Source: Escherichia coli (GTDB taxonomy: Bacteria; Pseudomonadota; Gammaproteobacteria; Enterobacterales; Enterobacteriaceae). Taken from it: 64,000 nucleotides of DNA. Positions 832-13,501 of this stretch are shown one piece after another. A model generated the notes under the pieces. That model searched no databases. It was not told where the DNA came from and saw nothing but the letters and a program-made list of their open reading frames with translations. Made by a program: the position numbers and the translations under genes. The stretch lies in the NCBI RefSeq assembly GCF_013122565.1, contig NZ_CP053258.1. The stretch is one strand, 5' to 3'. The stretch's first letter is position 1. Each line of letters begins with the position of its first letter.

Positions 832-1287
832 TCATTCACATATTAAAGATACGGGTTTCTCCCTTGGTGGTTCATCGAAATAAAGAGTCTTACAGGAATG
901 AGTATTTACAGGTACTGGCTGAGATAACCAGACCAGTCCGTAGCTATAAATACAGGAAAACCAGTATCTGTCGCTCTCTTTCGCTGTCGCGCCTTCTGTA
1001 TTCCATATCAACCATGTTTCCTGTTTTATTTTTTTCATCTCTGGCTTCTGATCGCCAAAATTTTCCGGTTTATCCTGTGTGACACTAATATGCGTTAACC
1101 ACTGACGAGGCTCCTGCCGTGGGGAAACTCTCCATTGCGGCTGGACAAATGATTTCAGAACCGCGGTGTAAGGCTCCGTTTCAACAAAAACAGGACAAGT
1201 AACTTCCCATGCCGACACATTTTGTGCATAAAACAAGGCAACACCAGAAAGAAGCAATACAGGAAAGCGCATCATCGTACCTTCCAT
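832..1287 (-). CDS. Exported cysteine-containing protein; candidate T6SS immunity protein
   Basis: 151 aa; N-terminal Sec signal peptide (MMRFPVLLLSGVALFYAQNVSA/WE); 4 Cys in mature part; start ATG overlaps upstream stop (TAATG); located between the putative effector and hcp. Confidence 0.6.
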   Translation of the reverse strand: MEGTMMRFPVLLLSGVALFYAQNVSAWEVTCPVFVETEPYTAVLKSFVQPQWRVSPRQEPRQWLTHISVTQDKPENFGDQKPEMKKIKQETWLIWNTEGATAKESDRYWFSCIYSYGLVWLSQPVPVNTHSCKTLYFDEPPREKPVSLICE

Positions 1288-1670
1288 TATTCAATTACAT
1301 AAAATGCTTCAGCATTACTGCTGGCGCTGGGATACGAACCGTCAGAGTTTGCTCCGCCTTTCGGTCTGAGTTGATGTTTTTCGATTCTGATCTGCGTTCT
1401 CCACTGATCCATAACCCAGATCCCTCGTTTATCCTGCCCCAGATAGAATGCAGCATGATTACCTGAACTCCTGCCAGGCCATCGCCCATTAAAAAAAGTG
1501 GCAATAGCGGTACCTTTTGGAATGGTGGTGTCCCCCCACACTTTCTTACCCGCACGCCATGTTGCTGTGGAGCCAAGATGTGCATACCTTTTAACCAGAG
1601 TTACACACTCACCATCCCCCACTAATGGCTGCCCCTGTAATAAATCCACTGATTCATAAACTCGCGACAT
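1287..1670 (-). CDS. Candidate T6SS amidase effector, papain-like (CHAP/NlpC-P60-type) fold
   Basis: 127 aa, no signal peptide; GECVTLVKRY motif (Cys22), GNHAAFYLG (His72), downstream Asp88/Gln89, spacing typical of CHAP/NlpC-P60 Cys-His-polar triads; SD GAGGG upstream; coupled to the downstream exported protein. Confidence 0.6.
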   Translation of the reverse strand: MSRVYESVDLLQGQPLVGDGECVTLVKRYAHLGSTATWRAGKKVWGDTTIPKGTAIATFFNGRWPGRSSGNHAAFYLGQDKRGIWVMDQWRTQIRIEKHQLRPKGGANSDGSYPSASSNAEAFYVIE

Positions 1671-1709: not shown

Positions 1710-3224
1710 TCAGGCATTACCCTGTTTTACCGACGGCAGTTTTGTGACCAGACGCAGTGATCCTGTTAACCCTTCAAGCTGAAAATGCGGGCGCAGGAAG
1801 AATTTGGCATCGTAATAACCCGGATTACCTTCCACCTCTTCCACCACCACTTCGGCTGCTGCTAGTGGGCGACGAGCTTTGGTTTCCTGTGAGGAGTTCA
1901 CCGGATCGGCATCGACGTAGTTCATGATCCACTCATTGAGCCAGCGCTGCATATCTTCACGCTCTTTGAACGAGCCGATCTTGTCGCGCACGATACATTT
2001 GAGGAAGTGCGCAAACCGTGAACAGGCGAAAAGATATGGCAAACGAGCTGAGAGATTAGCGTTGGCCGTAGCGTCCGGATCGTAATATTCCTGCGGTTTT
2101 TGCAGCGACTGTGCGCCAATAAAGGCGGCATAATCGGAGTTTTTGCGGTGGATCAGCGGGATAAAACCGTTTTTGGCCAGTTCAGCTTCACGGCGATCAG
2201 AGATGGCAATTTCCGTCGGGCATTTCATATCCACGCCGCCGTCATCGGTCGGGAAGGTATGACAGGGTAGATTTTCCACCGCGCCACCAGATTCAACACC
2301 ACGGATCAACGTACACCAACCGTAATGTTTGAAAGAACGGTTGATATTTACACCCATTGCATAGGCGGCATTGCTCCAGACATATTTGCTGTGATCTGCG
2401 CCATCCGCATCTTCTTCAAAATCAAACTCATCTACAGGGTTTGTTTTCGCACCATAAGGCAAACGGGAGAGGAAACGTGGCATCGTCAGGCCAATGTAGC
2501 GAGAATCCTCACTTTTCCGCAGCGAGTTCCACGGTGCGTATTCGAGGTTTTGGGTCACAATTTTGGTCAAATCACGCGGGTTAGCCAGTTCCTGCCAGGA
2601 GTCCATCTGCAACACTGACGGAGAGGCCCCGGCAATAAACGGCGCATGGGCTGAGGCTGCTACTTTGGCAATGGAACCGAGCAGATCCACATCCGGTGGC
2701 GTGTGATCAAAATAATAATCCGCAATAATACAACCGTAAGGTTCTCCACCTAACTGTCCATATTCAGCTTCATACAGCTTTTTGAACATGGGGCTTTGAT
2801 CCCAGGCTATCCCTTTGTAACGTTTCATATTTTTCCGCAATTCATCCTTCGAAAGGTTCATAAAGCGGATTTTTAATTTTTCATCGGTTTCAGTGTTGTA
2901 AACCAAATGTTCCATCCCACGCCAGGAGGACTCCAGTTTCTGAAATTCCGGATGACTCAGGATGAGTTTGATCTGCTCGGTTAATTTGAAATCAATCTGC
3001 TCAATAATCGCAGCAATACTTTTATAAGCGTCGTCACTGACGGTGACGGTATTTGTCAGAGCCTGTTGGGCCAGCGTCTGAACTGCTGCCTCAACAGCCT
3101 TTGCTGCCTGAGGTGTCTTGGGACGGAAGGCTTTATCCAGGAGCGAATCAAATTCAGTGTCCTGATAGGCAGTGGTTTGCGCAGCAGAGAGATCGCCAGT
3201 CGCCAGAAGAGTATCGTTTACCAT
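1710..3224 (-). CDS. tssC: T6SS contractile sheath large subunit TssC (VipB/ImpC)
   Basis: 504-aa ORF with recognisable TssC sequence; immediately downstream of tssB. Confidence 0.95.
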   Translation of the reverse strand: MVNDTLLATGDLSAAQTTAYQDTEFDSLLDKAFRPKTPQAAKAVEAAVQTLAQQALTNTVTVSDDAYKSIAAIIEQIDFKLTEQIKLILSHPEFQKLESSWRGMEHLVYNTETDEKLKIRFMNLSKDELRKNMKRYKGIAWDQSPMFKKLYEAEYGQLGGEPYGCIIADYYFDHTPPDVDLLGSIAKVAASAHAPFIAGASPSVLQMDSWQELANPRDLTKIVTQNLEYAPWNSLRKSEDSRYIGLTMPRFLSRLPYGAKTNPVDEFDFEEDADGADHSKYVWSNAAYAMGVNINRSFKHYGWCTLIRGVESGGAVENLPCHTFPTDDGGVDMKCPTEIAISDRREAELAKNGFIPLIHRKNSDYAAFIGAQSLQKPQEYYDPDATANANLSARLPYLFACSRFAHFLKCIVRDKIGSFKEREDMQRWLNEWIMNYVDADPVNSSQETKARRPLAAAEVVVEEVEGNPGYYDAKFFLRPHFQLEGLTGSLRLVTKLPSVKQGNA

Positions 3225-3855: not shown

Positions 3856-4146
3856 TTAAAAATCATACGCAGAGAGTATTTTTATAATCTCTTTGTTTTC
3901 TTTGTACTTTTCCCGCAGCACAGGGAGTGATTTCTTCGCTGGAGGACACCAGGTATCAACCCCCTTTTCGATGTCTCTTTTATCCTTCTCTGGTAAAGAA
4001 CTGTCCCATTCACCAGCAAGATGCTGGCACATTTCCGCATTACTCAGAAAATGCTGCACATCCTGTGGTAAAGACGGTTCCCCCTGAGCACAGAAAGCGA
4101 ACATCATTAACAGGAATGTCCACAACACCGGATAACGAAATGTCAT
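3856..4146 (-). CDS. Small exported protein of unknown function (T6SS-embedded)
   Basis: 96 aa; hydrophobic signal peptide (MTFRYPVLWTFLLMMFAFCAQG/EP); charged Lys/Glu-rich mature region with 2 Cys; sits between clpV and tssB. Confidence 0.55.
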   Translation of the reverse strand: MTFRYPVLWTFLLMMFAFCAQGEPSLPQDVQHFLSNAEMCQHLAGEWDSSLPEKDKRDIEKGVDTWCPPAKKSLPVLREKYKENKEIIKILSAYDF

Positions 4147-4364: not shown

Positions 4365-6998
4365 TTAATCCGTTTCAAAAATAATCTGTTCATCCTCATC
4401 AACACGAATGCGGATTTGCGTGATGGCCGTTTTCTCTGTCATCGCCTGCAACCAGTAACGGGACAGTTGTGGGAGGATATGTTGTTCGATATAGCCGATG
4501 AGCAAACGAGCGCCGGTTTCGTGCATCGGGCAGCGCGACACAATATGCGTAATCAATTCATCGCCATACACCAGTGAAACGCCATGCTGCTCCGCCATCC
4601 GATCCATCAATCTGCCAAGATGCAGGCGGGCAATAACACCACGCGCGGTCTCATCCAGCGGTAAATAAGGAATAACCGTCACACGCCCCAGGAAAGCCGC
4701 CGGGAAGTGTTTACGTAACTCCGGCATTAACGCCTCTTTTAATCCTGCCGAATCAGGCATCAGCGCCGGATCCTCACAGAGCTGGCTGATAAGTTCCGCT
4801 CCCGCGTTAGTAGTCAACAACAGCGTGGTATTTTTGAAATCGATGTGGACACCTTCGCCATCTTCCATCGCCCCCTTATCAAACACCTGGAAGAACAGCT
4901 CGTGGACGTCGTGATGGGCTTTTTCAATTTCATCCAGCAATACCACGCTCCAGGGATGGCGGCGTACCGCTTCTGTCAACACGCCGCCTTCGCCATAACC
5001 CACGTAGCCGGGCGGTGCGCCTTTCAGCGTGGAAACGGTGTGGGACTCCTGAAACTCGCTCATGTTGATGGTGATCAGGTTCTGCTCACCGCCATAGATA
5101 GCCTCTGCCAGCGCCAGAGCGGTCTCAGTCTTGCCAACACCGGACGGCCCGGCCAGCAAAAAGACGCCCACAGGCTTACGCGGGTCACCTAAACCCGCCC
5201 GCGCGGTCTGGATACGCTCGCCAATCTGCGCCAGCGCGTCCCTCTGCCCGGTAACACGCTGCGCCAGACGGGCGGGCAGTTCCAGGATCTGACTGGCCTC
5301 ATCTTTCACCATGCGTCCGGCGGGAATACCGGTCCAGTCGGAGACAATCTCTGCCACCACGGTTGCACTGACTTCCGGGTACACGACGGGGTTTTCACCC
5401 TGCCAACCTCTTAATGCCGTTTCTGCCTGTTGTAGAGTGATTTCGTCGCGCTCGCCGGGCTCTGCGCCGCGTTGCTCGTGTAAACTGCGAACCAACTCCA
5501 GTTCCTGCTGCCACCGCGCTTCGGTGTCAGAAAGATCGGCATTCAGCGATATAATCCGCGCCGCCAGTACATCGCCCCGCTCCGAGCGGATACCCATTTT
5601 TTCCTGCTTTAATAACAACTCCTGCTCCAGTTCGGCAGCGTTGAGCTGCTGGCGCAGATACTGGACTCTCGCAGGCGGGGTATGCAGCGACAGCGCTACA
5701 CGGGCCGCCGCCGTATCCAGCAGGCTGATGGCCTTATCCGGTAGTTGCCGGGACGGAATGTACCGGTGAGAAAGCTGTACCGCGGCGCGCACGGCCTCAT
5801 CAAGGATCAGGACGTCATGGTGTTTTTCAAGCGTGGTGACTAACCCGCGTACCATCTCAACAGCCGCAACCTCTTCTGGCTCAGCAACCTGCAATACCTG
5901 AAAACGCCGGGTCAGCGCCGGATCCTTTTCGATATGGCGTTTGTACTCGCTCCAGGTAGTTGCGCCGATGGTGCGCAGGGTTCCACGCGCCAGCGCCGGT
6001 TTCAGCAGGTTGGCAGCATCCCCCGTACCGGATGTACCACCAGCGCCCACCAGCGTGTGAACTTCATCAACAAAAAGGATCACCGGCTGCGGCGAGCGCG
6101 CGGCCTCTTCCAACAACGCTTTCAGGCGGGATTCAAATTCACCCTTCATGGACGCCCCTGCCAGCAGCGCTCCAACATCCAGTGACAGCAACCGCACGTT
6201 ACGCAGTGAAGGCGGTACTTCCCCCCCGGCAATCGCCAGCGCGAATCCTTCCACCACTGCCGTTTTCCCGACTCCCGCCTCGCCGGTCAGCAGCGGGTTG
6301 TTCTGGCGACGGCGCAGCAGAATATCCGTCATAGTACGGATCTCGTGTTCGCGACCGGTGACCGGATCGATATTGCCTTCACGGGCCAGCGCAGTCATGT
6401 CCTGGCAGTATTTCGCCAGCGCGGATTTGCTTCCGGTTGATTCGCCGGCAAAGACCTGGCTAGCTTCCCCCGGTACTGCAGAATTTAAATCCGAGCCGTC
6501 ATAAGGCATTTCTGTTAATTCAGGAGATGAAGTGATTAAAGACGGAAGAATATCTAATAGTTCATCTACCGGTAGCTCTGCCAATGGCGCACAAATATTT
6601 TTTAACACCCGACACAATTCTGGCGTGGTTAACCAGGCAAGTAATAACCATCCACTACGAATTTTTTGATCGCCAAAGCGGATACTTGCCAACATCCAGG
6701 CTTTTTCAACAGAAAGATCGATATGATGGGAAAAATCGTTAATTACACTCGCTCCGGCAGGCAATATATTCAATTGCTGAATTAACGCCTTCTCAACATC
6801 AGCAGATGTTATTTGATAATGTCGAAGCACATTGTGAATGTCATTCTCTGGTTGTTGTATTAACTGATGCAACCAATGTGTCAGTTCGACATAAGGATTA
6901 GCGCGTAATTTACAGAACGTTGTCGCAGATTCCAAAGATCTAAACAAAGATTTGGTTAGCTTTCCATATAGTGCACTGCGCGAAACAGGAGTGTCCAT
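4365..6998 (-). CDS. clpV: T6SS AAA+ ATPase ClpV (TssH)
   Basis: 877 aa; two Walker A motifs (GEAGVGKT, GPSGVGKT); ClpB-like architecture without a long middle domain; T6SS context. Confidence 0.95.
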   Translation of the reverse strand: MDTPVSRSALYGKLTKSLFRSLESATTFCKLRANPYVELTHWLHQLIQQPENDIHNVLRHYQITSADVEKALIQQLNILPAGASVINDFSHHIDLSVEKAWMLASIRFGDQKIRSGWLLLAWLTTPELCRVLKNICAPLAELPVDELLDILPSLITSSPELTEMPYDGSDLNSAVPGEASQVFAGESTGSKSALAKYCQDMTALAREGNIDPVTGREHEIRTMTDILLRRRQNNPLLTGEAGVGKTAVVEGFALAIAGGEVPPSLRNVRLLSLDVGALLAGASMKGEFESRLKALLEEAARSPQPVILFVDEVHTLVGAGGTSGTGDAANLLKPALARGTLRTIGATTWSEYKRHIEKDPALTRRFQVLQVAEPEEVAAVEMVRGLVTTLEKHHDVLILDEAVRAAVQLSHRYIPSRQLPDKAISLLDTAAARVALSLHTPPARVQYLRQQLNAAELEQELLLKQEKMGIRSERGDVLAARIISLNADLSDTEARWQQELELVRSLHEQRGAEPGERDEITLQQAETALRGWQGENPVVYPEVSATVVAEIVSDWTGIPAGRMVKDEASQILELPARLAQRVTGQRDALAQIGERIQTARAGLGDPRKPVGVFLLAGPSGVGKTETALALAEAIYGGEQNLITINMSEFQESHTVSTLKGAPPGYVGYGEGGVLTEAVRRHPWSVVLLDEIEKAHHDVHELFFQVFDKGAMEDGEGVHIDFKNTTLLLTTNAGAELISQLCEDPALMPDSAGLKEALMPELRKHFPAAFLGRVTVIPYLPLDETARGVIARLHLGRLMDRMAEQHGVSLVYGDELITHIVSRCPMHETGARLLIGYIEQHILPQLSRYWLQAMTEKTAITQIRIRVDEDEQIIFETD

Positions 6999-7330
6999 CT
7001 GTTACACCTGATGATGTAAGAACATATAAATGATACATAAACATAACTGTACCGATTAAAACTTCTAATTAATAGAATTATCAAAAAGGCAGAATGAAAC
7101 AATGATGCATATCACAGAACCCAATGTAATATAGCAGGTAGTATCGTTTTTATGGTGATATTCAATAGCGTAAGCCAATTTCATACAAGCCATGAATATA
7201 TTAAATTGAAAATCGCCAATATATATTTCTGTAAAAACTTATATTGATAAAGCAAATTGATCAGCATTGCTTATCTAAAAATTTAGAAAACTTATTCTTT
7301 TGAAAGAAACACTCTACACAGTGATACACA
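6999..7330. promoter_or_regulatory. AT-rich divergent control region between clpV operon and the plus-strand T6SS operon
   Basis: 332 bp noncoding, visibly AT-rich relative to the flanking genes; contains a GATC-centred palindrome at 7246-7275. Confidence 0.5.
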
Positions 7331-8245
7331 ATGAAACAAAATATTACGTGGGGACTCCAAAAAAAACAGGCGCACGGGATCGCCGATAACACAATTTACG
7401 CGACTGAAGGAACACAAATTATCTTTACCGTTACCTCTCCCTGGATTCCTGTTTTTGAGGTGAATGATGATGTAAAGATTGCCCTCAGTCTGACCCGCCA
7501 CGAAGAAGCATGGTGGATTATTAATCAGTCTACCGAATATTGCTGTACGGTAAACGACCAGATTGTGGAACCTCATCACCGTATGCGTCTGAATGAAGGC
7601 GATCAGATAGAATGGGGGTTATCTTCATGGTGCCTTGTGCATGGCACCCCATCATCTCCGGACATGAGCGCAGTAAAAACAATATCGCAGACTGCCATCA
7701 CGTCGGAAACAATAACCGAATATCTGGATCTGGATTGGTTCAGGCAGCAGCATCTGACATCACAAAATCCATTCGATATCATTCCTGTTCATGGAGCCTC
7801 CTCCACCGGAGAAGATGCGGAAAAAGAAAATGCCCTGACCCGACTTTATCAGGAATACCGCGAGGCGTTGTTATCTCCCGAAGAAGATCTTCATCGCCAT
7901 GCTGATCCTTTTCCCTTTAACGAAGAGCCCTCCTCGCAGGATCTGGATTCATTGCGTGACCTGGTCACCGAAGCCGATACATTGCAGGATATGGTCACTG
8001 GTGGGTTAAGCATTGACGCTATTCTCAATGTACTGGATGCCACCGGCGAAGATGAAACTATCTGGCCTGTCGAAAAGACTCCCCCTGATATCCTGCATTT
8101 ACTTTCCCCGGAATACGCCCCGGAAACAGCGCATAACACCGTACTGCCAGATCTGACACGCAAAGAGCACCGCATTATCGGCATTGACAGCCATTACCGG
8201 ATAAACCCGGCACAACACGGAGATATCTCTCATGACAAACAATAA
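7331..8245 (+). CDS. T6SS-associated protein of unknown function; possible degenerate FHA-like N-terminal domain
   Basis: 304 aa, ATG start; N-terminal region has FHA-reminiscent elements (SLTRHEEAWWIINQS…RLNEGDQIEWG); C-terminal half acidic/Pro-rich and low complexity; first gene of the operon containing tagJ-tssEFG-tssA. Confidence 0.65.
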   Translation: MKQNITWGLQKKQAHGIADNTIYATEGTQIIFTVTSPWIPVFEVNDDVKIALSLTRHEEAWWIINQSTEYCCTVNDQIVEPHHRMRLNEGDQIEWGLSSWCLVHGTPSSPDMSAVKTISQTAITSETITEYLDLDWFRQQHLTSQNPFDIIPVHGASSTGEDAEKENALTRLYQEYREALLSPEEDLHRHADPFPFNEEPSSQDLDSLRDLVTEADTLQDMVTGGLSIDAILNVLDATGEDETIWPVEKTPPDILHLLSPEYAPETAHNTVLPDLTRKEHRIIGIDSHYRINPAQHGDISHDKQ

Positions 8246-9062
8246 CGTGCTACCGGCTACCCTGTCGGCGCTGCTGCGGGATTATTCCGTGGCGGAGGGC
8301 ATTCAGATGGCAGAGCAGCAGGTCAGGATGCACCCAGCGCAGGCCTCCCGCCGCCACAGCCTGTTTCAGTTACTGTGCGTGGCAGGCGACTGGTCGCGGG
8401 CGCTGCAACAGATCCAGCTGTGCGACCGGATGGACGCAAATTATACCCGCGAAGCGCAGGTATTTGGCGAGCTGATCCGCTGTGAGATATACCGCCACGC
8501 CTGCTTTCAGGGGGAACAGCGGCCCGGTTTTATTCTCCCGCCGCCCGCCTGGATGGAGGATCTACTGGCTGCTCTCGCCTGTAACGCCCGTAGTGAAGCG
8601 CAGGAAGCTGATGTCCACCGCAGCCGCGCGCTTGAGGCCATAACAGACACTTCTGGGCAGTGGAATGGCGGCGCGTTTGACTGGATTAGCGACAGCGACT
8701 CCCGTACCGGTCCGGTACTCGAACTGATCGCAGGCGGGGTGTATATCTGGCTGCCATTCTCACAAATTCGCTCACTGAAATCGCCGCAGCCTGCGCATCT
8801 GACCGATTTGCTCTGGAAACCCGTCAACGTCACCCTGCACAACGGTGACACGCACAGTGCCTGGCTGTTTCCCCGCTACAGCGGCTCTGAAAAGGCCGCC
8901 GACTCCCTGCGTCTGTGCCGGGAAACGGTCTGGCAGGACGGGCCGGGAGAGACGCTGGTACAGGCGCTGGGTCAGAGGGTGTGGCTCACCAGCCAGGGCG
9001 ATATCAGCCTGCTGGATTTGTCCACCTGTACCTTTAATACCTCCGAAGGAAGCGACGCGTGA
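8232..9062 (+). CDS. tagJ: T6SS accessory protein TagJ (ImpE/SciE family)
   Basis: 276 aa; N-terminal region with the ImpE-family motif LFQLLCVAGDWSRALQQ. Confidence 0.85.
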   Translation: MTNNNVLPATLSALLRDYSVAEGIQMAEQQVRMHPAQASRRHSLFQLLCVAGDWSRALQQIQLCDRMDANYTREAQVFGELIRCEIYRHACFQGEQRPGFILPPPAWMEDLLAALACNARSEAQEADVHRSRALEAITDTSGQWNGGAFDWISDSDSRTGPVLELIAGGVYIWLPFSQIRSLKSPQPAHLTDLLWKPVNVTLHNGDTHSAWLFPRYSGSEKAADSLRLCRETVWQDGPGETLVQALGQRVWLTSQGDISLLDLSTCTFNTSEGSDA

Positions 9063-9553
9063 GCACCTCCCGCCAGCGTCCGGGCAGCCACCTGCTGCCC
9101 ACACTGTTTGACCGTCTGTGCGATGACGCCCCAGACCAGAAGCGCGACCACGATATCAGCGTCAGCCCGGTTCAGCTTAAGGAGATCATCCGCCGGGACT
9201 TGTCGTTTCTGCTCAACACCGTCAGCCATGAAGATGATATTGATGCCGCACGTTACCCACACGCGGCAGCATCTGTACTGAACTACGGCCTGCCGCCACT
9301 GGCGGGCAGCTTTCTGTATGAACACAAGTGGGACGATATCCGCAGGGCCATTTTGCGTACCATCACCCGGTTTGAACCCCGGCTGAAAGCGTCCACCCTG
9401 CAAATCATCCCACTTCAGGATGAGCGCCGCCAGAGTGGCCATAACACATTACAGTTTGAAATTCGCGGCGAGATCCTCACGCAGCCTTACCCGACGGCAT
9501 TCCGGGTACGCAGCGCGCTGGATATGGAACAAAGCCGCATTACGTTTTTTTAA
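9059..9553 (+). CDS. tssE: T6SS baseplate protein TssE (gp25-like)
   Basis: 164 aa; GTG start overlapping tagJ stop (GTGA); gp25/TssE-like sequence; precedes tssF-tssG. Confidence 0.85.
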   Translation: MSTSRQRPGSHLLPTLFDRLCDDAPDQKRDHDISVSPVQLKEIIRRDLSFLLNTVSHEDDIDAARYPHAAASVLNYGLPPLAGSFLYEHKWDDIRRAILRTITRFEPRLKASTLQIIPLQDERRQSGHNTLQFEIRGEILTQPYPTAFRVRSALDMEQSRITFF

Positions 9554-9568
9554 TTCAGAGAGAAACCG

Positions 9569-11452
9569 ATGGATCCACGGCTACTGGAATACTACAACCG
9601 CGAACTGAGCTATCTGCGGGAAACGGGAGCCGAATTTGCCGCCCGTCATCCCAAAGTCGCCGCCCGGCTGGGCATGCAGGGAACGGATATTGCCGATCCG
9701 TATGTGGAGCGGATGGTCGAAGCCTTCAGCTTCCTGACCGCCCGCACGCAGCTAAAAATTGACGCTGAATTCCCTCGTTTCACCCAGCGCCTGCTGGAAG
9801 TGGTCAGCCCCAATTACGTCACACCCACGCCCTCAATGAGCGTGGCGCAGTTGCATCCCGATACGGAAGAAGGCGATCTGGCAAAAGGATTTACCGTCCC
9901 GCGCGACACGGCCTTTTTCTCCGCCATTCCGGAAGGCGAAAGCACTGCCTGCCAGTTTCGCAGCAGCCAGGATGTAACGCTGTGGCCGCTCGCCATCGAA
10001 GAGGCGCGACTGACCGCCGCGCCGCCGGATATGCCTGCCCTGCACCGCTACCTGCCGGCCAACATTCACGTCGCCGGGGCGCTGCGTATTACCCTGCGCA
10101 CCTTTGGTGAACTAACGTTCAGTCAGCTTGCCGGACTGGACAGGCTGCCGTTTTATCTCTGCGGCGAGGAGCGTACGGCCTCACACCTGTTCGAACTTCT
10201 ACATACCAGCGCCATCGCGACCCTGGCTGGCATTCCGGGACATTTTGACGGCGCGTTGGATGTGAATCTGCAACAGCCCGTTATGTACGAAGGCCTGGAG
10301 CCGGATCAGGGGCTGCTGCCGCTGGCGTGGAACGTGTTTCACGGTCATAACCTGCTGCATGAATATTTTGCCTGTCCGGAACGCTTCTATTTTTTCACCC
10401 CGACAGGCCTGTCTGCCGGATTACAGAAAATTGACGGTGGCGTGGCGGAGATTGTTATCCTGCTGAACCGCCTGCCGCCGGACTGGCTGATCCACCAGAC
10501 AAATACGGCACAGTTCAGCCTGTTCTGTACCCCGGTTATCAACCTGTTTCCCCGCGTCACCGCCCGGATCGATGTCACGCACAGCACGACGGAACAGCAT
10601 CTGGTGGTGGACAGAACCCATCCGCTGGATTATGAGGTGTTCTCGGTCCAGGAAGTGGAAGGGCTGGAAACCGACACCACACGGAAGATGGCCTTTCGCC
10701 CGCTCTACCACACCCGCAATAACGATGAAGGCAATCACGGGCGTTATTTTTCCCTGCGCCGGGAGCCGCGCCGCTTATCAGAAAACGCCCGCCGTTACGG
10801 TACCCGTACTCCCTATACGGGATCAGAAGTGTTCCTGTCGCTGGTTGACCAGTATGAAGCGCCGTACCCGGAAAATCTGCGCCACATCACCATCACGGCC
10901 ATGATCACTAACCGCGATCTGCCCTGTCTTATTGCCCGCAATGGCCGGGACGATCTAACCGTGGATGCGGCCATCCCGGTGGCGGGCGTAGGGCTTATCC
11001 GCCCGCCACGCTCGCCGCAGCCCCCGCTGGCTGAACGTGAGATGGCATGGCGGTTGATCCGCCAGTTATCTTTTAATTATCTGCCGCTGGCCGATCTGGA
11101 TCACCGTACCGGCGGCCAGGCGTTGCGAGATCTGCTGAACCTGTTTATTCCTGCTCATGACAGTCCGCAATCGCGCCAGGTGCGCAGCCTGATTGGTTGT
11201 AAAACGACCCCGGTCACCCGCCGTCTGCCCGGTTCCGGACTACTGGTCTATGGGCGTGGCGTCAGTTGTGAACTGACGGTGGATGAAGAAGGTTTTTCCG
11301 GCATCAGTCCGTATCTGTTCGGCCTGGTGCTGGAACACTATATCGCCCGCCATGTTTCCATTAATACCTTCTCGCAGATGACGCTGCACAGCATGCAGCG
11401 TGGCAAAATTATGACCTGGCCTGTCAGGGCGGGACAGCGGGGAAGCGTATGA
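9569..11452 (+). CDS. tssF: T6SS baseplate protein TssF (ImpG)
   Basis: 627 aa; recognisable TssF sequence; stop overlaps tssG start (ATGA). Confidence 0.92.
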   Translation: MDPRLLEYYNRELSYLRETGAEFAARHPKVAARLGMQGTDIADPYVERMVEAFSFLTARTQLKIDAEFPRFTQRLLEVVSPNYVTPTPSMSVAQLHPDTEEGDLAKGFTVPRDTAFFSAIPEGESTACQFRSSQDVTLWPLAIEEARLTAAPPDMPALHRYLPANIHVAGALRITLRTFGELTFSQLAGLDRLPFYLCGEERTASHLFELLHTSAIATLAGIPGHFDGALDVNLQQPVMYEGLEPDQGLLPLAWNVFHGHNLLHEYFACPERFYFFTPTGLSAGLQKIDGGVAEIVILLNRLPPDWLIHQTNTAQFSLFCTPVINLFPRVTARIDVTHSTTEQHLVVDRTHPLDYEVFSVQEVEGLETDTTRKMAFRPLYHTRNNDEGNHGRYFSLRREPRRLSENARRYGTRTPYTGSEVFLSLVDQYEAPYPENLRHITITAMITNRDLPCLIARNGRDDLTVDAAIPVAGVGLIRPPRSPQPPLAEREMAWRLIRQLSFNYLPLADLDHRTGGQALRDLLNLFIPAHDSPQSRQVRSLIGCKTTPVTRRLPGSGLLVYGRGVSCELTVDEEGFSGISPYLFGLVLEHYIARHVSINTFSQMTLHSMQRGKIMTWPVRAGQRGSV

Positions 11453-12444
11453 GCAACGATTTCACTCAGGCGCAGGAAACCCCCTGGCGTTACGGTTTTC
11501 TGAACCTGATGCGCCGCGTTGATGTGCAGTTGTGTACCGTTCCGGCGGACAACACCTGGCAACCACGGATGGAAAAATTTCGCCTCGGACAAACGCCCAC
11601 GCTGACCTTTGCGCCACGGGAAATCGCCAGTGTGAGCTGGCAGGAAGGACGCCTGCATATCAGCCTGTACAGTCTCGGGCTGTGGGGGCCGAACGGTCCG
11701 TTGCCGCTGCACTACACCGAACTGGCGCGCAACCGGACCGAAAGCCGACGCGATCCGACGCTGACCCGTTTTTCCGATCTTTTTCATCACCGCTGGCTGA
11801 CGCAGTTTTACCAGGCATGGCGCAGCGCCCAGTCAGCCGGGGGCGGTCTGGATAAACCGCAGCATGACCGCTTTGCCTTTTATATCGCCAGCCTCAGCGG
11901 GCAGGATTTAAGGGAGAGCGCCGACAGCCCGTTGCCGGATCACGTTCGCCTGGCGGCATCGGCGCATCTGGTGCGTGAGTCCCGCAATCCGGACGGTCTG
12001 GCCGCCACGCTGGCGCACTATTTTGGCGTACCTTTCCGGATACAGGAGTATGTCCTGCACTGGATAGCCGTGGCGGAGGATGAGATCACCCGGCTGGGGA
12101 TGCCTGCCCCCTCTTCCGTTATTGGCAATGGTGCACTCATCGGCCAGGCCGTGCCGGACATGCAGTATAAGTTCCGGCTGGTTATCGGCCCGCTGACGCT
12201 GGAGGATTACCGACGTTTTCTGCCTGGCGGCAATAACCTGCCCGTCCTGACAGAACTGGTCCGCGCCTTTAGTGGTTTTGAATACTGCTGGGAAATTGAG
12301 CTACAACTAAAGCCCCACGCCGCCCCTCCGGCTGTTACCGGTGGTCCGTACCAACTGGGTTGGACCGCATGGGCGGGTAAAGCCATGCACGACAACCCGG
12401 TGACGGGCATGATTTTCGAACCAGAACACTACCTGGCGCACTGA
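11449..12444 (+). CDS. tssG: T6SS baseplate protein TssG (ImpH)
   Basis: 331 aa; recognisable TssG sequence; translationally coupled to tssF. Confidence 0.9.
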   Translation: MSNDFTQAQETPWRYGFLNLMRRVDVQLCTVPADNTWQPRMEKFRLGQTPTLTFAPREIASVSWQEGRLHISLYSLGLWGPNGPLPLHYTELARNRTESRRDPTLTRFSDLFHHRWLTQFYQAWRSAQSAGGGLDKPQHDRFAFYIASLSGQDLRESADSPLPDHVRLAASAHLVRESRNPDGLAATLAHYFGVPFRIQEYVLHWIAVAEDEITRLGMPAPSSVIGNGALIGQAVPDMQYKFRLVIGPLTLEDYRRFLPGGNNLPVLTELVRAFSGFEYCWEIELQLKPHAAPPAVTGGPYQLGWTAWAGKAMHDNPVTGMIFEPEHYLAH

Positions 12445-12454
12445 GGATAATTAA

Positions 12455-13501
12455 ATGGAAATATTCCTGTCTGACCCAATTTCGGCGGAATGTCCCTGCG
12501 GCCCGGATCTGGAGTACGATCCGGAATACCTGCTACTGTTCACTCGCGCCGCACCGCGTGAAGAAGCGCAATACGGCGATTTTGTCAGTACGCCGGAAAC
12601 CATTAACTGGGCGGAGCTTGAGCGGGACGCCCATCGTCTGCTGATGCGCAGCAAAGATATCCGCATTCTGGTTGTCCTGCTGCGCTGCCGTATCCAGCAG
12701 GCCGGCGCACAGGGACTGGCAGACGCGCTCGCGTTGCTGGAAACGTTGTGCGCCACGTACCCGGACGCCATCCATCCGCAACTGCTCGCGACTGAAGATA
12801 TCACCGCCGAAGAGGCGGCAGTGGCACGTAGTAACGCGCTGGCGGCGTTGCTGGACCACGAAGGAGTAATGGCGGATATTCGTGGCATTACACTGTCAAA
12901 TAATGTCGCCATGTGCCTTCAGGTTCGCGATGTGGAGCGTTCGCTGTCAGCATCACGCCCGGCGGATGCGCTGGCACCGGAATCAGTACGCCAGCAACTG
13001 GCCGACCTGGAAGCGCGCGGCACATTGCCGCTGGATGCCTTTCGCCAGGCCGCAGAGACCACTGAACGGCTGCAACGCCATGCGCGTGAAACGCTGAATG
13101 ACCAGGCACCGGACTTCTCCCGTCTGACGCAACTGCTGGCCCTGTTACCGGGAGCAGTGCAGAGCACCACGCCGGAGATCCTGCCACAACCACAGGCTGA
13201 ACAGCCGGAGAATGCCACCATCGATAATACTGAAAAGATGCAGGCAGAGCAGATTGCGCTAGCGGTGCATATCGCGGAGGAAATATCACCGATATCCGGC
13301 GCAGAACCTCGGCAGATCCGCGACCGGAACGATGCGCTGGAACGCCTGCGTGTCATCCGTCGCTGGTTTGAGCACAGCGAACCGAGCAGCCCGACCATTC
13401 CTTTGCTGCTCCAGGCAGAACGCCTGGTCGGAAAACGCTTCTCTGAGGTAATAAATGAAATTCCAGTAGAACTGCTGGAGAAATGGGATGCGCTGGAGTA
13501 A
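12455..13501 (+). CDS. tssA: T6SS protein TssA (ImpA N-terminal domain family, short form)
   Basis: 348 aa; N-terminal ImpA_N signature (DPISAECPCGPDLEYDPEY); SD GAGG upstream. Confidence 0.85.
   Translation: MEIFLSDPISAECPCGPDLEYDPEYLLLFTRAAPREEAQYGDFVSTPETINWAELERDAHRLLMRSKDIRILVVLLRCRIQQAGAQGLADALALLETLCATYPDAIHPQLLATEDITAEEAAVARSNALAALLDHEGVMADIRGITLSNNVAMCLQVRDVERSLSASRPADALAPESVRQQLADLEARGTLPLDAFRQAAETTERLQRHARETLNDQAPDFSRLTQLLALLPGAVQSTTPEILPQPQAEQPENATIDNTEKMQAEQIALAVHIAEEISPISGAEPRQIRDRNDALERLRVIRRWFEHSEPSSPTIPLLLQAERLVGKRFSEVINEIPVELLEKWDALE

What the first reader, a model, noticed from the sequence alone, without database searches (positions are those of the whole stretch)
7331..8245. 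Operon-leading 304-aa protein with possible degenerate FHA-like domain and acidic disordered tail
The first gene of the tagJ-tssEFG-tssA operon encodes a protein whose N-terminal ~110 aa has FHA-reminiscent elements (S-x-x-RH, N-x-S-T, L-x-E-G-D-x-I-x-x-G) but lacks the canonical Gly-Arg. The C-terminal ~190 aa is acidic, Pro/Glu/Asp-rich and low complexity. No Ser/Thr kinase or phosphatase (PpkA/PppA-type) is present in the window. This may be a non-canonical T6SS regulator or scaffold.
Basis: inference. Interest (0 to 1): 0.45.

Follow-up and report, generated by a model that had tools for sequence, protein, structure and literature searches.

The report
TagK, a phospho-blind FHA-fold T6SS accessory protein
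The gene is tagK, an already named but functionally uncharacterised accessory gene of the E. coli/Salmonella type VI secretion system; its N-terminus does adopt an FHA fold, without the phosphothreonine-binding residues, and its "tail" is a conserved domain rather than junk.

Summary
The ORF at 7331-8245 (+) is real and intact. It is an orthologue of TagK: NCBIfam NF033418 scores 549.6 bits against a cut-off of 200, and it is about 95% identical at the DNA level to annotated tagK in 125 E. coli genomes.

The C-terminal half is acidic (net charge -25). It is neither low-complexity nor free-evolving. It contains the curated TagK domain (residues 166-289), four motif blocks conserved from E. coli to Burkholderia, and dN/dS 0.18.

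No kinase, phosphatase or TagH is annotated anywhere in the island of an E. coli relative, and none was found in the parts of the related loci that were checked. In 24 related loci the order is tssM-tagF-tagK, usually followed by tagJ-tssEFG-tssA.

Best reading, which is inference: TagK is a phosphorylation-independent adaptor or scaffold that fills the Fha niche, possibly as the partner of TagF. The family is already known; the mechanism is untested. Interest is modest.

The parts
6999..7330 (.). AT-rich (28% GC) divergent intergenic region between tssH/clpV and tagK; the presumed shared promoter and silencing region
   Evidence: GC content. No sigma-70 consensus match was found. In Salmonella the equivalent region upstream of 'tagKJ-tssEFGA' and tssH is an H-NS-bound region (PMC11770342).
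7331..8245 (+). tagK CDS (304 aa), a soluble cytoplasmic T6SS accessory protein
   Evidence: NF033418 equivalog 549.6 bits, cut-off 200. About 95% nt identity to annotated tagK in 125 E. coli genomes. dN/dS 0.205 against the E. coli orthologue. The maximum 19-aa hydropathy is 1.07, so no TM segment.
7331..7645 (+). N-terminal degenerate FHA-fold domain (residues 1-105), lacking the phosphothreonine-binding residues
7646..7825 (+). Variable acidic linker (residues 106-165) with two conserved short motifs, YLDLDWF (7721-7741) and NPFDII (7766-7783)
   Evidence: pLDDT is below 50 for residues 111-124 and 154-157. Alignment occupancy is low, 0.43-0.47, for residues 111-130. The motifs are conserved in the long forms and in some short forms.
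7826..8197 (+). TagK domain (residues 166-289). It has four conserved blocks: M1 helix L-x-x-L-[HY]-x-E-Y-x-x-x-L (7832-7873); M2 T-L-Q-D-M-V-x-G-x-x-x-I-D-x-I-L-x-x-L-D (7979-8041); M3 P-D-I-L-x-L-[LF]-[SA]-P (8081-8107); M4 L-P-x-L-T-R-[RK]-E-H-[HR]-x-x-[GS]-x-D-S (8144-8200)
   Evidence: NF033419 102.7 bits, cut-off 40. The blocks are conserved in the long, tagJ-less and short (Burkholderia) forms. H280 and S287 are invariant in 135 sequences. AF2 predicts helices at each block with pLDDT 60-82 but no confident compact fold. No Pfam match, no PDB sequence match and no similarity to the TagH C-domain (hhalign probability 0.1%).
8232..9062 (+). tagJ (ImpE family); its start overlaps the tagK stop by 14 nt
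   Evidence: Pfam ImpE PF07024 i-E 1.2e-40. RefSeq annotation of the orthologue.
9059..13501 (+). tssE (9059-9553), tssF (9569-11452), tssG (11449-12444) and tssA (12455-13501): baseplate and cap genes downstream in the same operon
   Evidence: NCBIfam TIGR03357, TIGR03359 and TIGR03347 score above their cut-offs. The best match for TssA, TIGR03363, scores below its cut-off. RefSeq annotation.
4365..6998 (-). tssH/clpV, divergently transcribed from tagK
   Evidence: TIGR03345 1220.9 bits.

Best explanation
The ORF is tagK, a conserved accessory gene of the E. coli T6SS (aspV island) / Salmonella SPI-6-type type VI secretion cluster.

The protein has three parts:
- An N-terminal FHA-fold beta-sandwich. 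Its structural core is kept (W61, N65, C72, N75, G90-D91, E94, G96), but the peptide-binding loops have lost the Arg, Ser, His and Asn that grip phosphothreonine.
- A variable acidic linker.
- The C-terminal TagK domain, a string of four conserved, mostly helical motifs that is not predicted to fold confidently on its own.

This much is shown: identity, fold, loss of the pThr residues, conservation, purifying selection, synteny, and no TPP gene annotated in the full island of the E. coli relative or detected in the partial related loci.

The following is inferred. TagK works as a phosphorylation-independent cytoplasmic adaptor or scaffold in T6SS assembly. It occupies the niche that Fha/TagH fills in kinase-regulated systems. 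The FHA-like domain serves as a protein-protein docking module, as in YscD, PrgH and EssC. The C-terminal motifs fold on binding to conserved T6SS components. TagF is encoded immediately upstream, and is often translationally coupled, in the colinear form of the cluster. TagF is therefore the most likely regulatory partner, by analogy with TagF sequestering Fha.
For: Identity:
- NF033418 549.6 bits and NF033419 102.7 bits.
- Annotated orthologues in RefSeq and AFDB.

Fold:
- AF2 pLDDT about 95 for residues 1-105.
- Foldseek top 50 hits are all FHA.

Degenerate pocket:
- Pfam FHA matches only model positions 25-67, at i-E 0.0014.
- Among 57 family members, 0 reach E<=1e-3 and 18 reach E<=0.1.
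- Column counts show no conserved R, S or H in the first 60 positions.
- Insertions and deletions fall in the N-terminal half, where the beta3-4 and beta4-5 loops are expected.
- The profile alignment to 1uht places G-R, S-x-x-H and the loop Asn on non-equivalent residues.

Functional constraint:
- dN/dS is 0.205 overall and 0.18 for the C-terminal part.
- The profile search found 290 homologues; a 135-sequence alignment of them shows invariant H280 and S287.

No threonine-phosphorylation pathway:
- The whole island in the E. coli relative is annotated without PpkA, PppA or TagH.
- The Pfam-annotated neighbourhoods L002, L004, L047 and L048 have none.
- No Hanks-kinase motif occurs in the ORFs (>200 aa) of the loci held at that point.
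- Sampled unlabelled ORFs are VgrG or housekeeping genes.

Synteny:
- tagF lies directly upstream of long-form tagK in 24 loci, and tagJ lies directly downstream in most.
- The called genes overlap by 1-4 nt in L002-L005.
- These TagF proteins keep the G-K and S-x-D-x-x-x-R residues. PMC5995506 showed that these residues are required for Fha binding and repression.
- A 2025 preprint counts 22% of tagF-containing clusters as lacking Fha and the TPP (10.64898/2025.12.08.692957). TagK clusters would fall in that class.
Against: - No experiment on TagK was found in the searched literature, so the mechanism is entirely inferential.
- The same TagF loops are also conserved in Acinetobacter TagF, which binds Hcp rather than an FHA protein. 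Their conservation therefore does not single out TagK as the partner.
- In E. coli, L047, L049 and Burkholderia, tagK is not adjacent to tagF.
- The Burkholderia-type short proteins have no FHA domain at all, so the FHA module cannot be the universal functional core.
- TagK shares no detectable C-terminal homology with TagH, so 'Fha analogue' rests on the fold and the gene position only.
Confidence: 0.55

Rival explanations
1. TagK is primarily a partner of TagJ, and through it of TssB and ClpV. Its C-terminal helices would dock into the TPR-like ImpE protein and act in sheath recognition or recycling rather than in assembly initiation.
For: tagK and tagJ are adjacent and usually overlap: by 14 nt here, and by 8-23 nt in L004, L047 and L048. 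The pairing survives the cluster rearrangement that separates tagK from tagF, in E. coli, L047 and Burkholderia. Even the short TagK_dom-only proteins sit directly before tagJ. From background knowledge, P. aeruginosa TagJ1 binds a helix of TssB1.
Against: A Variovorax-type subset (L007, L010, L012, L017, L026, L030, L038) has tagF-tagK-tssG-tssA with no adjacent tagJ. These proteins still keep all four C-terminal motifs unchanged. No interaction prediction was possible.
Confidence: 0.2
2. TagK is a genuine phospho-dependent Fha-type reader. It would bind a phosphothreonine generated by a kinase encoded elsewhere in the genome, using a non-canonical pocket.
For: It has an FHA fold. It holds a position analogous to fha1 at the head of a structural operon (background knowledge of the P. 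aeruginosa H1 cluster). T276 is invariant among close relatives within the conserved L-T-R-[RK]-E-H motif, and could in principle be a phospho-site.
Against: All canonical pThr-contacting positions are substituted, and they are not conserved across the 57-member alignment examined column by column. The binding loops are the most variable and indel-rich part of the domain. No kinase or phosphatase is annotated in the full island of the E. coli relative, and none was found in the partial related loci checked.
Confidence: 0.05
3. The ORF is a decaying remnant of a former tagH/fha gene with no remaining function. It would be retained only because it carries the operon's promoter-proximal sequence.
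For: Its GC content is 47.8%, against 59-61% for the downstream genes. There is no obvious Shine-Dalgarno sequence before the ATG. Truncated copies exist in Shigella flexneri.
Against: dN/dS is 0.2, similar to tagJ and tssA. The reading frame is full-length and intact from E. coli to Snodgrassella and Comamonadaceae, with invariant residues. The C-terminal domain is unrelated to the TagH C-domain, so it is not simply an eroded TagH.
Confidence: 0.05

Closest known systems
TagK (NCBIfam NF033418 'type VI secretion system-associated protein TagK'; domain model NF033419), e.g. in Salmonella SPI-6 and the E. coli aspV-island T6SS
   Same: A full-length match far above the cut-off. The same length, the same motifs and the same position before tagJ-tssEFG-tssA, divergent from tssH.
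   Different: Nothing of substance. The window copy is 95.4% identical in protein to the E. coli relative in L001 and 54-55% identical to Salmonella TagK. The family itself has no published function in the searched literature.
Fha / TagH (TIGR03354; P. aeruginosa Fha1, A. tumefaciens Fha, E. coli T6SS-2 ImpI such as Sakai ECs_0227)
   Same: A cytoplasmic T6SS accessory protein with an N-terminal FHA fold, followed by a long flexible region and a C-terminal conserved module. It is encoded in clusters that also carry TagF. The profile-profile alignment covers the second half of the FHA domain.
   Different: There is no hit to TIGR03354. There is no PF20232 T6SS_FHA_C, and the C-domains are unrelated (hhalign probability 0.1%). 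The pThr-binding residues are absent, and there is no PpkA/PppA. The TagK domain can exist without any FHA domain.
Phospho-independent FHA-like scaffolding domains of other secretion machines (T3SS YscD/PrgH cytoplasmic domain; T7SS EssC N-terminal FHA domains)

Membership tests
TagK (NF033418 equivalog) | Whole-protein HMM score at or above the curated cut-off (200 bits), end to end | tested here: met
   549.6 bits; residues 1-304 match profile positions 1-305
TagK (NF033418 equivalog) | C-terminal TagK domain (NF033419, cut-off 40 bits) | tested here: met
   102.7 bits, residues 166-289
TagK (NF033418 equivalog) | Encoded inside a T6SS cluster, immediately upstream of tagJ/tssE | tested here: met
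   Gene order in the window and in the related loci
Canonical FHA domain (Pfam PF00498) | 11-stranded beta-sandwich FHA fold | tested here: met
Canonical FHA domain (Pfam PF00498) | Significant full-length match to the Pfam HMM | tested here: inconclusive
   i-E 0.0014 and 19.4 bits, covering only model positions 25-67 of 67. Among 57 relatives, 0 reach E<=1e-3.
Canonical FHA domain (Pfam PF00498) | Conserved phosphothreonine-binding residues: Gly-Arg (beta3-4 loop), Ser-x-x-His (beta4-5 loop) and Asn (beta6-7 loop) | tested here: not met
   They align with T33-V34, V48..A51 and Y70. None is conserved in the 57-member family alignment. The alignment is sequence- and profile-based; no 3D superposition was available.
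Canonical FHA domain (Pfam PF00498) | Binds phosphothreonine peptides | not testable with these tools
   Needs ITC or FP with pThr peptides
TagH / Fha (TIGR03354) | HMM score at or above 120.25 bits | tested here: not met
   No hit at E<=0.01 for the full protein or at E<=10 for either half. The positive control ECs_0227 scores 339.5 bits.
TagH / Fha (TIGR03354) | C-terminal T6SS_FHA_C domain (PF20232) | tested here: not met
   No Pfam hit. hhalign of the TagK C-domain against the TagH alignment gives probability 0.1%.
Threonine-phosphorylation pathway (PpkA/PppA/Fha) regulated T6SS | Hanks-type kinase and PP2C phosphatase encoded in the cluster | tested here: not met
   None in the annotated island of the E. 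coli relative from yafV to aspV. None in the Pfam-annotated loci. The kinase-motif regex was negative. The left half of this strain's own island lies outside the window.
YscD/PrgH-type FHA-like scaffold | FHA-like domain fused to a transmembrane ring-forming protein | tested here: not met
   No hydrophobic segment: the maximum 19-aa Kyte-Doolittle mean is 1.07. Pfam Yop-YscD_cpl scores only E 0.15.

The most novel reading that the evidence does not exclude
TagK is the hidden Fha-equivalent of T6SS clusters currently classed as 'TagF without Fha or TPP'. On this reading it is a phosphorylation-blind FHA-fold adaptor that nucleates assembly through its C-terminal TagK motifs and is held in check by direct binding to TagF. 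That would give E. coli T6SS-1 / Salmonella SPI-6 a kinase-free post-translational checkpoint.
Probability: 0.25. Interest if true: 0.55.

Novelty: already known. Interest (0 to 1): 0.3.

Why it matters
TagK is present in the T6SS of E. coli, Shigella, Salmonella (SPI-6), Citrobacter, Enterobacter and Snodgrassella, and in many Burkholderiales. I found no functional study of it.

Recognising it as a degenerate FHA-fold protein that usually sits right after tagF gives a concrete, testable candidate for two open points. The first is how TagF-containing but 'Fha-less' systems are controlled post-translationally. The second is what takes over the assembly-promoting role of Fha there.

For genome annotation the result is simply confirmatory: the gene is correctly called tagK.

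Tried and rejected
- TagK as a divergent TagH. I fetched E. coli Sakai ImpI/TagH, built a TagH alignment and ran hhalign. Only the second half of the FHA domain aligns (probability 15-28%). The C-domains are unrelated. Rejected.
- Homology of the TagK domain to anything solved. A profile search of PDB sequences gave only noise (E >= 0.67). Pfam gave nothing.
- Whether the C-half folds on its own given a deeper MSA. A second AF2 run with 135 sequences raised the motif helices to pLDDT 60-82, but no confident globular fold appeared. I therefore describe it as conserved helical motifs that are probably conditionally folded.
- Motif loss as a clue to the partner. I compared TagK proteins from tagJ-adjacent, tagJ-less and short-form loci. 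All four C-terminal motifs are kept in every group, so this did not discriminate between partners.
- The search for related loci with family alignments failed twice for lack of a conserved 7-10-column stretch. A degenerate DNA pattern for P-x-L-T-[RQ]-x-E-H-H-x-x-[ST]-x-D-S worked instead and gave 40 loci, which on later HMM and context checks proved to be T6SS loci.
- Literature searches for TagK, STM0271, sciF and tagK+tagJ returned no functional work on this family. Most 'TagK' hits were the author name Tagkopoulos or an unrelated Xanthomonas AraC-type 'TagK'.
- The promoter scan of the intergenic region found no sigma-70 consensus.

Full report
**Observation**

The window carries a 304-codon ATG ORF at 7331-8245 on the + strand. 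It is the first gene of a compact run: tagK (7331-8245), tagJ (8232-9062; Pfam ImpE, 1.2e-40), tssE, tssF, tssG and tssA (9059-13501). This run is divergent from tssH/clpV (4365-6998, - strand), tssB, tssC and hcp.

The 332-bp spacer between tssH and tagK is 28% GC. In Salmonella the equivalent spacer, upstream of the 'tagKJ-tssEFGA' and tssH units, is an H-NS-bound region (PMC11770342).

The flanking backbone (dnaQ-rnhA-gloB-mltD) is 98.7% identical to E. coli. The T6SS segment is about 95% identical to that of 125 of 5426 complete E. coli genomes, where it lies at the aspV tRNA. The window starts inside hcp, so tssJKLM, tagF and vgrG of this island are not in it.

**Identity**

The protein is TagK. 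NCBIfam equivalog NF033418 scores 549.6 bits (cut-off 200) end to end. The domain model NF033419 scores 102.7 bits (cut-off 40) on residues 166-289. RefSeq annotates the E. coli orthologues as tagK. AFDB/UniProt labels the Salmonella and Snodgrassella orthologues TagK and more distant ones 'TagK domain-containing protein'. A few are already auto-labelled 'FHA domain-containing protein'. The object is therefore a known, named family.

Searches for TagK, STM0271, sciF and tagK+tagJ found no functional study of it. [quoted passage not shown] The Xanthomonas 'TagK' is an unrelated AraC regulator.

**N-terminal domain**

- Pfam gives only a partial, borderline FHA match: i-E 0.0014, residues 54-96 against model positions 25-67.
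- AlphaFold2 with a 22-sequence alignment already gave a beta-sandwich at pLDDT 80-90. With 135 sequences, residues 1-105 reach about 95.
- Foldseek against the PDB returned FHA domains for all 50 top hits.

The phosphothreonine-binding apparatus is missing.

- A profile of 28 TagK N-domains aligns to the Arabidopsis FHA domain 1uht (E 0.0046) over almost the whole domain.
- In that alignment the canonical V-G-R falls on F32-T33-V34. The S-x-x-H falls on V48..A51. The loop S-N-G falls on E69-Y70-C71.
- Column statistics over 57 family members show no conserved Arg, Ser or His in the first 60 positions.
- The conserved residues are W61, N65, C72, N75, L87, G90, D91, E94 and G96. N75, L87, G90, D91 and G96 align with canonical FHA core positions.
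- The indels of the family alignment cluster in the N-terminal half, where the beta3-4 and beta4-5 loops are expected.
- No member reaches Pfam FHA E<=1e-3.
S53 is itself variable.

**C-terminal part**

Residues 106-304 are acidic: 19% D+E, net charge -25, 7.5% Pro. They are not low-complexity, since only 1 of 285 windows falls below 3.0 bits.

They contain two short motifs in the linker, YLDLDWF and NPFDII. They also contain four blocks that make up the TagK domain:

| Block | Residues | Motif |
|---|---|---|
| M1 | 168-181 | L-x-x-L-[HY]-x-E-Y-x-x-x-L |
| M2 | 217-237 | T-L-Q-D-M-V-x-G-x-x-x-I-D-x-I-L-x-x-L-D |
| M3 | 251-259 | P-D-I-L-x-L-[LF]-[SA]-P |
| M4 | 272-290 | L-P-x-L-T-R-[RK]-E-H-[HR]-x-x-[GS]-x-D-S |

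H280 and S287 are invariant in 135 sequences of about 20% identity.

Against the E. coli orthologue, dN/dS is 0.18 for this part and 0.25 for the N-domain. For comparison it is 0.17 for tagJ and 0.04 for tssF.

AF2 predicts a helix at each block. Confidence rose from about 50 to 60-82 with the deeper alignment, but no confident compact fold appears. I read this region as conserved binding motifs that probably fold on a partner. That reading is inference.

The domain has no Pfam match and no PDB sequence match. It is unrelated to the C-terminal domain of TagH.

**Family and context**

A profile search of 1.84 billion representative proteins found 290 homologues. All ten homologues that were scanned match the TagK domain model.

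There are two architectures. The long form has the FHA-like domain, a linker and TagK_dom. It occurs in Enterobacterales, Snodgrassella, Comamonadaceae/Variovorax and unnamed metagenomic contigs. The short form, 213-228 aa, has TagK_dom only. It occurs in Burkholderia, Bordetella and Paraburkholderia.

I collected 49 loci. Gene order falls into three patterns:

- In 24 loci long-form tagK directly follows tssM-tagF, and tagJ-tssE-tssF-tssG-tssA usually continue after it. In L002-L005 tagF and tagK overlap by 1-4 nt.
- In E. coli, L047, L049 and Burkholderia the cluster is split, so that tagK-tagJ-tssEFGA diverge from tssH.
- A Variovorax subset has tagF-tagK-tssG-tssA with no adjacent tagJ. 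All the motifs are retained.

**No phosphorylation pathway**

- The complete island of the E. coli relative, from the yafV/ISAs1 remnant to aspV, contains vgrG, PAAR-Rhs, tagF, tssM, tssL, tssK, tssJ, hcp, tssCB, tssH and tagKJ-tssEFGA. It contains no kinase, phosphatase or TagH.
- The Pfam-annotated neighbourhoods L002, L004, L047 and L048 have none.
- A Hanks-kinase motif scan over all ORFs of more than 200 aa was negative.
- Sampled unlabelled ORFs are VgrG or housekeeping genes.

**Mechanism**

The following is shown: a soluble protein with no TM segment, an FHA fold without the pThr residues, a constrained motif-rich C-domain, an obligate T6SS context, and no TPP gene in the fully annotated E. 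coli island or in the parts of the other loci examined.

The rest is inferred. In kinase-regulated systems Fha/TagH promotes assembly. TagF represses by binding Fha directly, through its G-K and S-D-R loops (PMC5995506). The TagF proteins encoded next to TagK keep those residues, as WGKLP (FGRLP in E. coli) and S-x-D-x-x-G-R.

A 2025 preprint reports that 22% of tagF clusters 'lack Fha and TPP' (10.64898/2025.12.08.692957). TagK clusters would be scored that way, although they encode a cryptic FHA-fold protein beside tagF. I therefore favour TagK as a phosphorylation-independent adaptor filling the Fha niche, with TagF as its probable regulator.

There are four caveats:

- The same TagF loops are conserved in Acinetobacter TagF, which binds Hcp.
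- The short Burkholderia proteins have no FHA domain at all.
- TagJ is an equally well-linked neighbour.
- I could not run a co-fold.

The main rival is a TagJ/sheath-recycling partner role (about 0.2). A truly phospho-dependent reader and a decaying remnant are each unlikely (about 0.05).

**Verdict**

However, the gene is the already named TagK, and its 'tail' is the family-defining domain. Novelty is 'already known' and interest is 0.3. The one moderately interesting and testable idea is the TagF-TagK (cryptic Fha) link.

Noticed in passing
window 832-1670 (- strand): Two ORFs lie between hcp (129-620) and tssC (1710-3224): a BPSL0067-family protein (1287-1670, 161.6 bits) and an STY0301-family protein (832-1287, 52.7 bits). 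The 95%-identical E. coli relative has only a 236-bp gap at this position. This looks like an inserted effector/immunity-type cargo pair; from memory, Tae4/Tai4 occupy a similar spot in SPI-6.
   Followed up: partly
window 7331-8245 compared with 8232-13501: tagK is 47.8% GC, while tagJ is 61% and tssE-tssA are about 59%. The same direction of difference is seen in L001 (48 vs 60), L004 (42 vs 50) and L047 (38 vs 43). It remains unexplained; possibilities are relaxed composition near the H-NS-bound promoter or a different origin.
   Followed up: partly
window 11235-11328 (+): ARAGORN calls a 94-nt 'tRNA-His' inside the tssF coding sequence. This is almost certainly a false positive.
   Followed up: no
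window 12455-13501 (+): The TssA here scores below the curated cut-offs of both NCBIfam TssA models (148.4 against 160.85, and 63.5 against 230.1). It is also the least conserved gene relative to the E. coli relative (90.5% aa identity, dN/dS 0.22).
   Followed up: no
window 3856-4146 (- strand): A 96-aa ORF between tssH and tssB has a weak thioredoxin-like (StoA CxxC) match (E 1.4e-6, far below the cut-off). It is annotated as a conserved hypothetical in the E. coli relative (L001 16857-17147).
   Followed up: no
L008, L009, L014, L025, L028, L031, L037, L039, L043 (Burkholderia); L011 (Bordetella); L015 (Paraburkholderia): Short proteins of about 150-228 aa (213-228 aa in Burkholderia) consisting of the TagK domain alone, with no FHA-like N-domain. 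They occupy the same slot directly upstream of tagJ-tssE (directly before tssE in L011), divergent from tssH where that flank is held.
   Followed up: partly
L006 21528-22808 (- strand; E. coli O157:H7 Sakai ECs_0227, TagH of the other E. coli T6SS): By eye this bona fide TagH (339.5 bits) also reads V-G-H and S-I-P-A where G-R and S-x-x-H are expected. Its cluster shows no annotated kinase or phosphatase either, so degenerate FHA pockets may be common in kinase-less T6SSs.
   Followed up: no
P0010 (Shigella flexneri, 187 aa); AFDB A0A384LQB0 (99 aa): The Shigella flexneri TagK entries are truncated fragments, 88-95% identical to the window protein. This suggests that tagK, or the whole system, is decaying in that lineage.
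   Followed up: no
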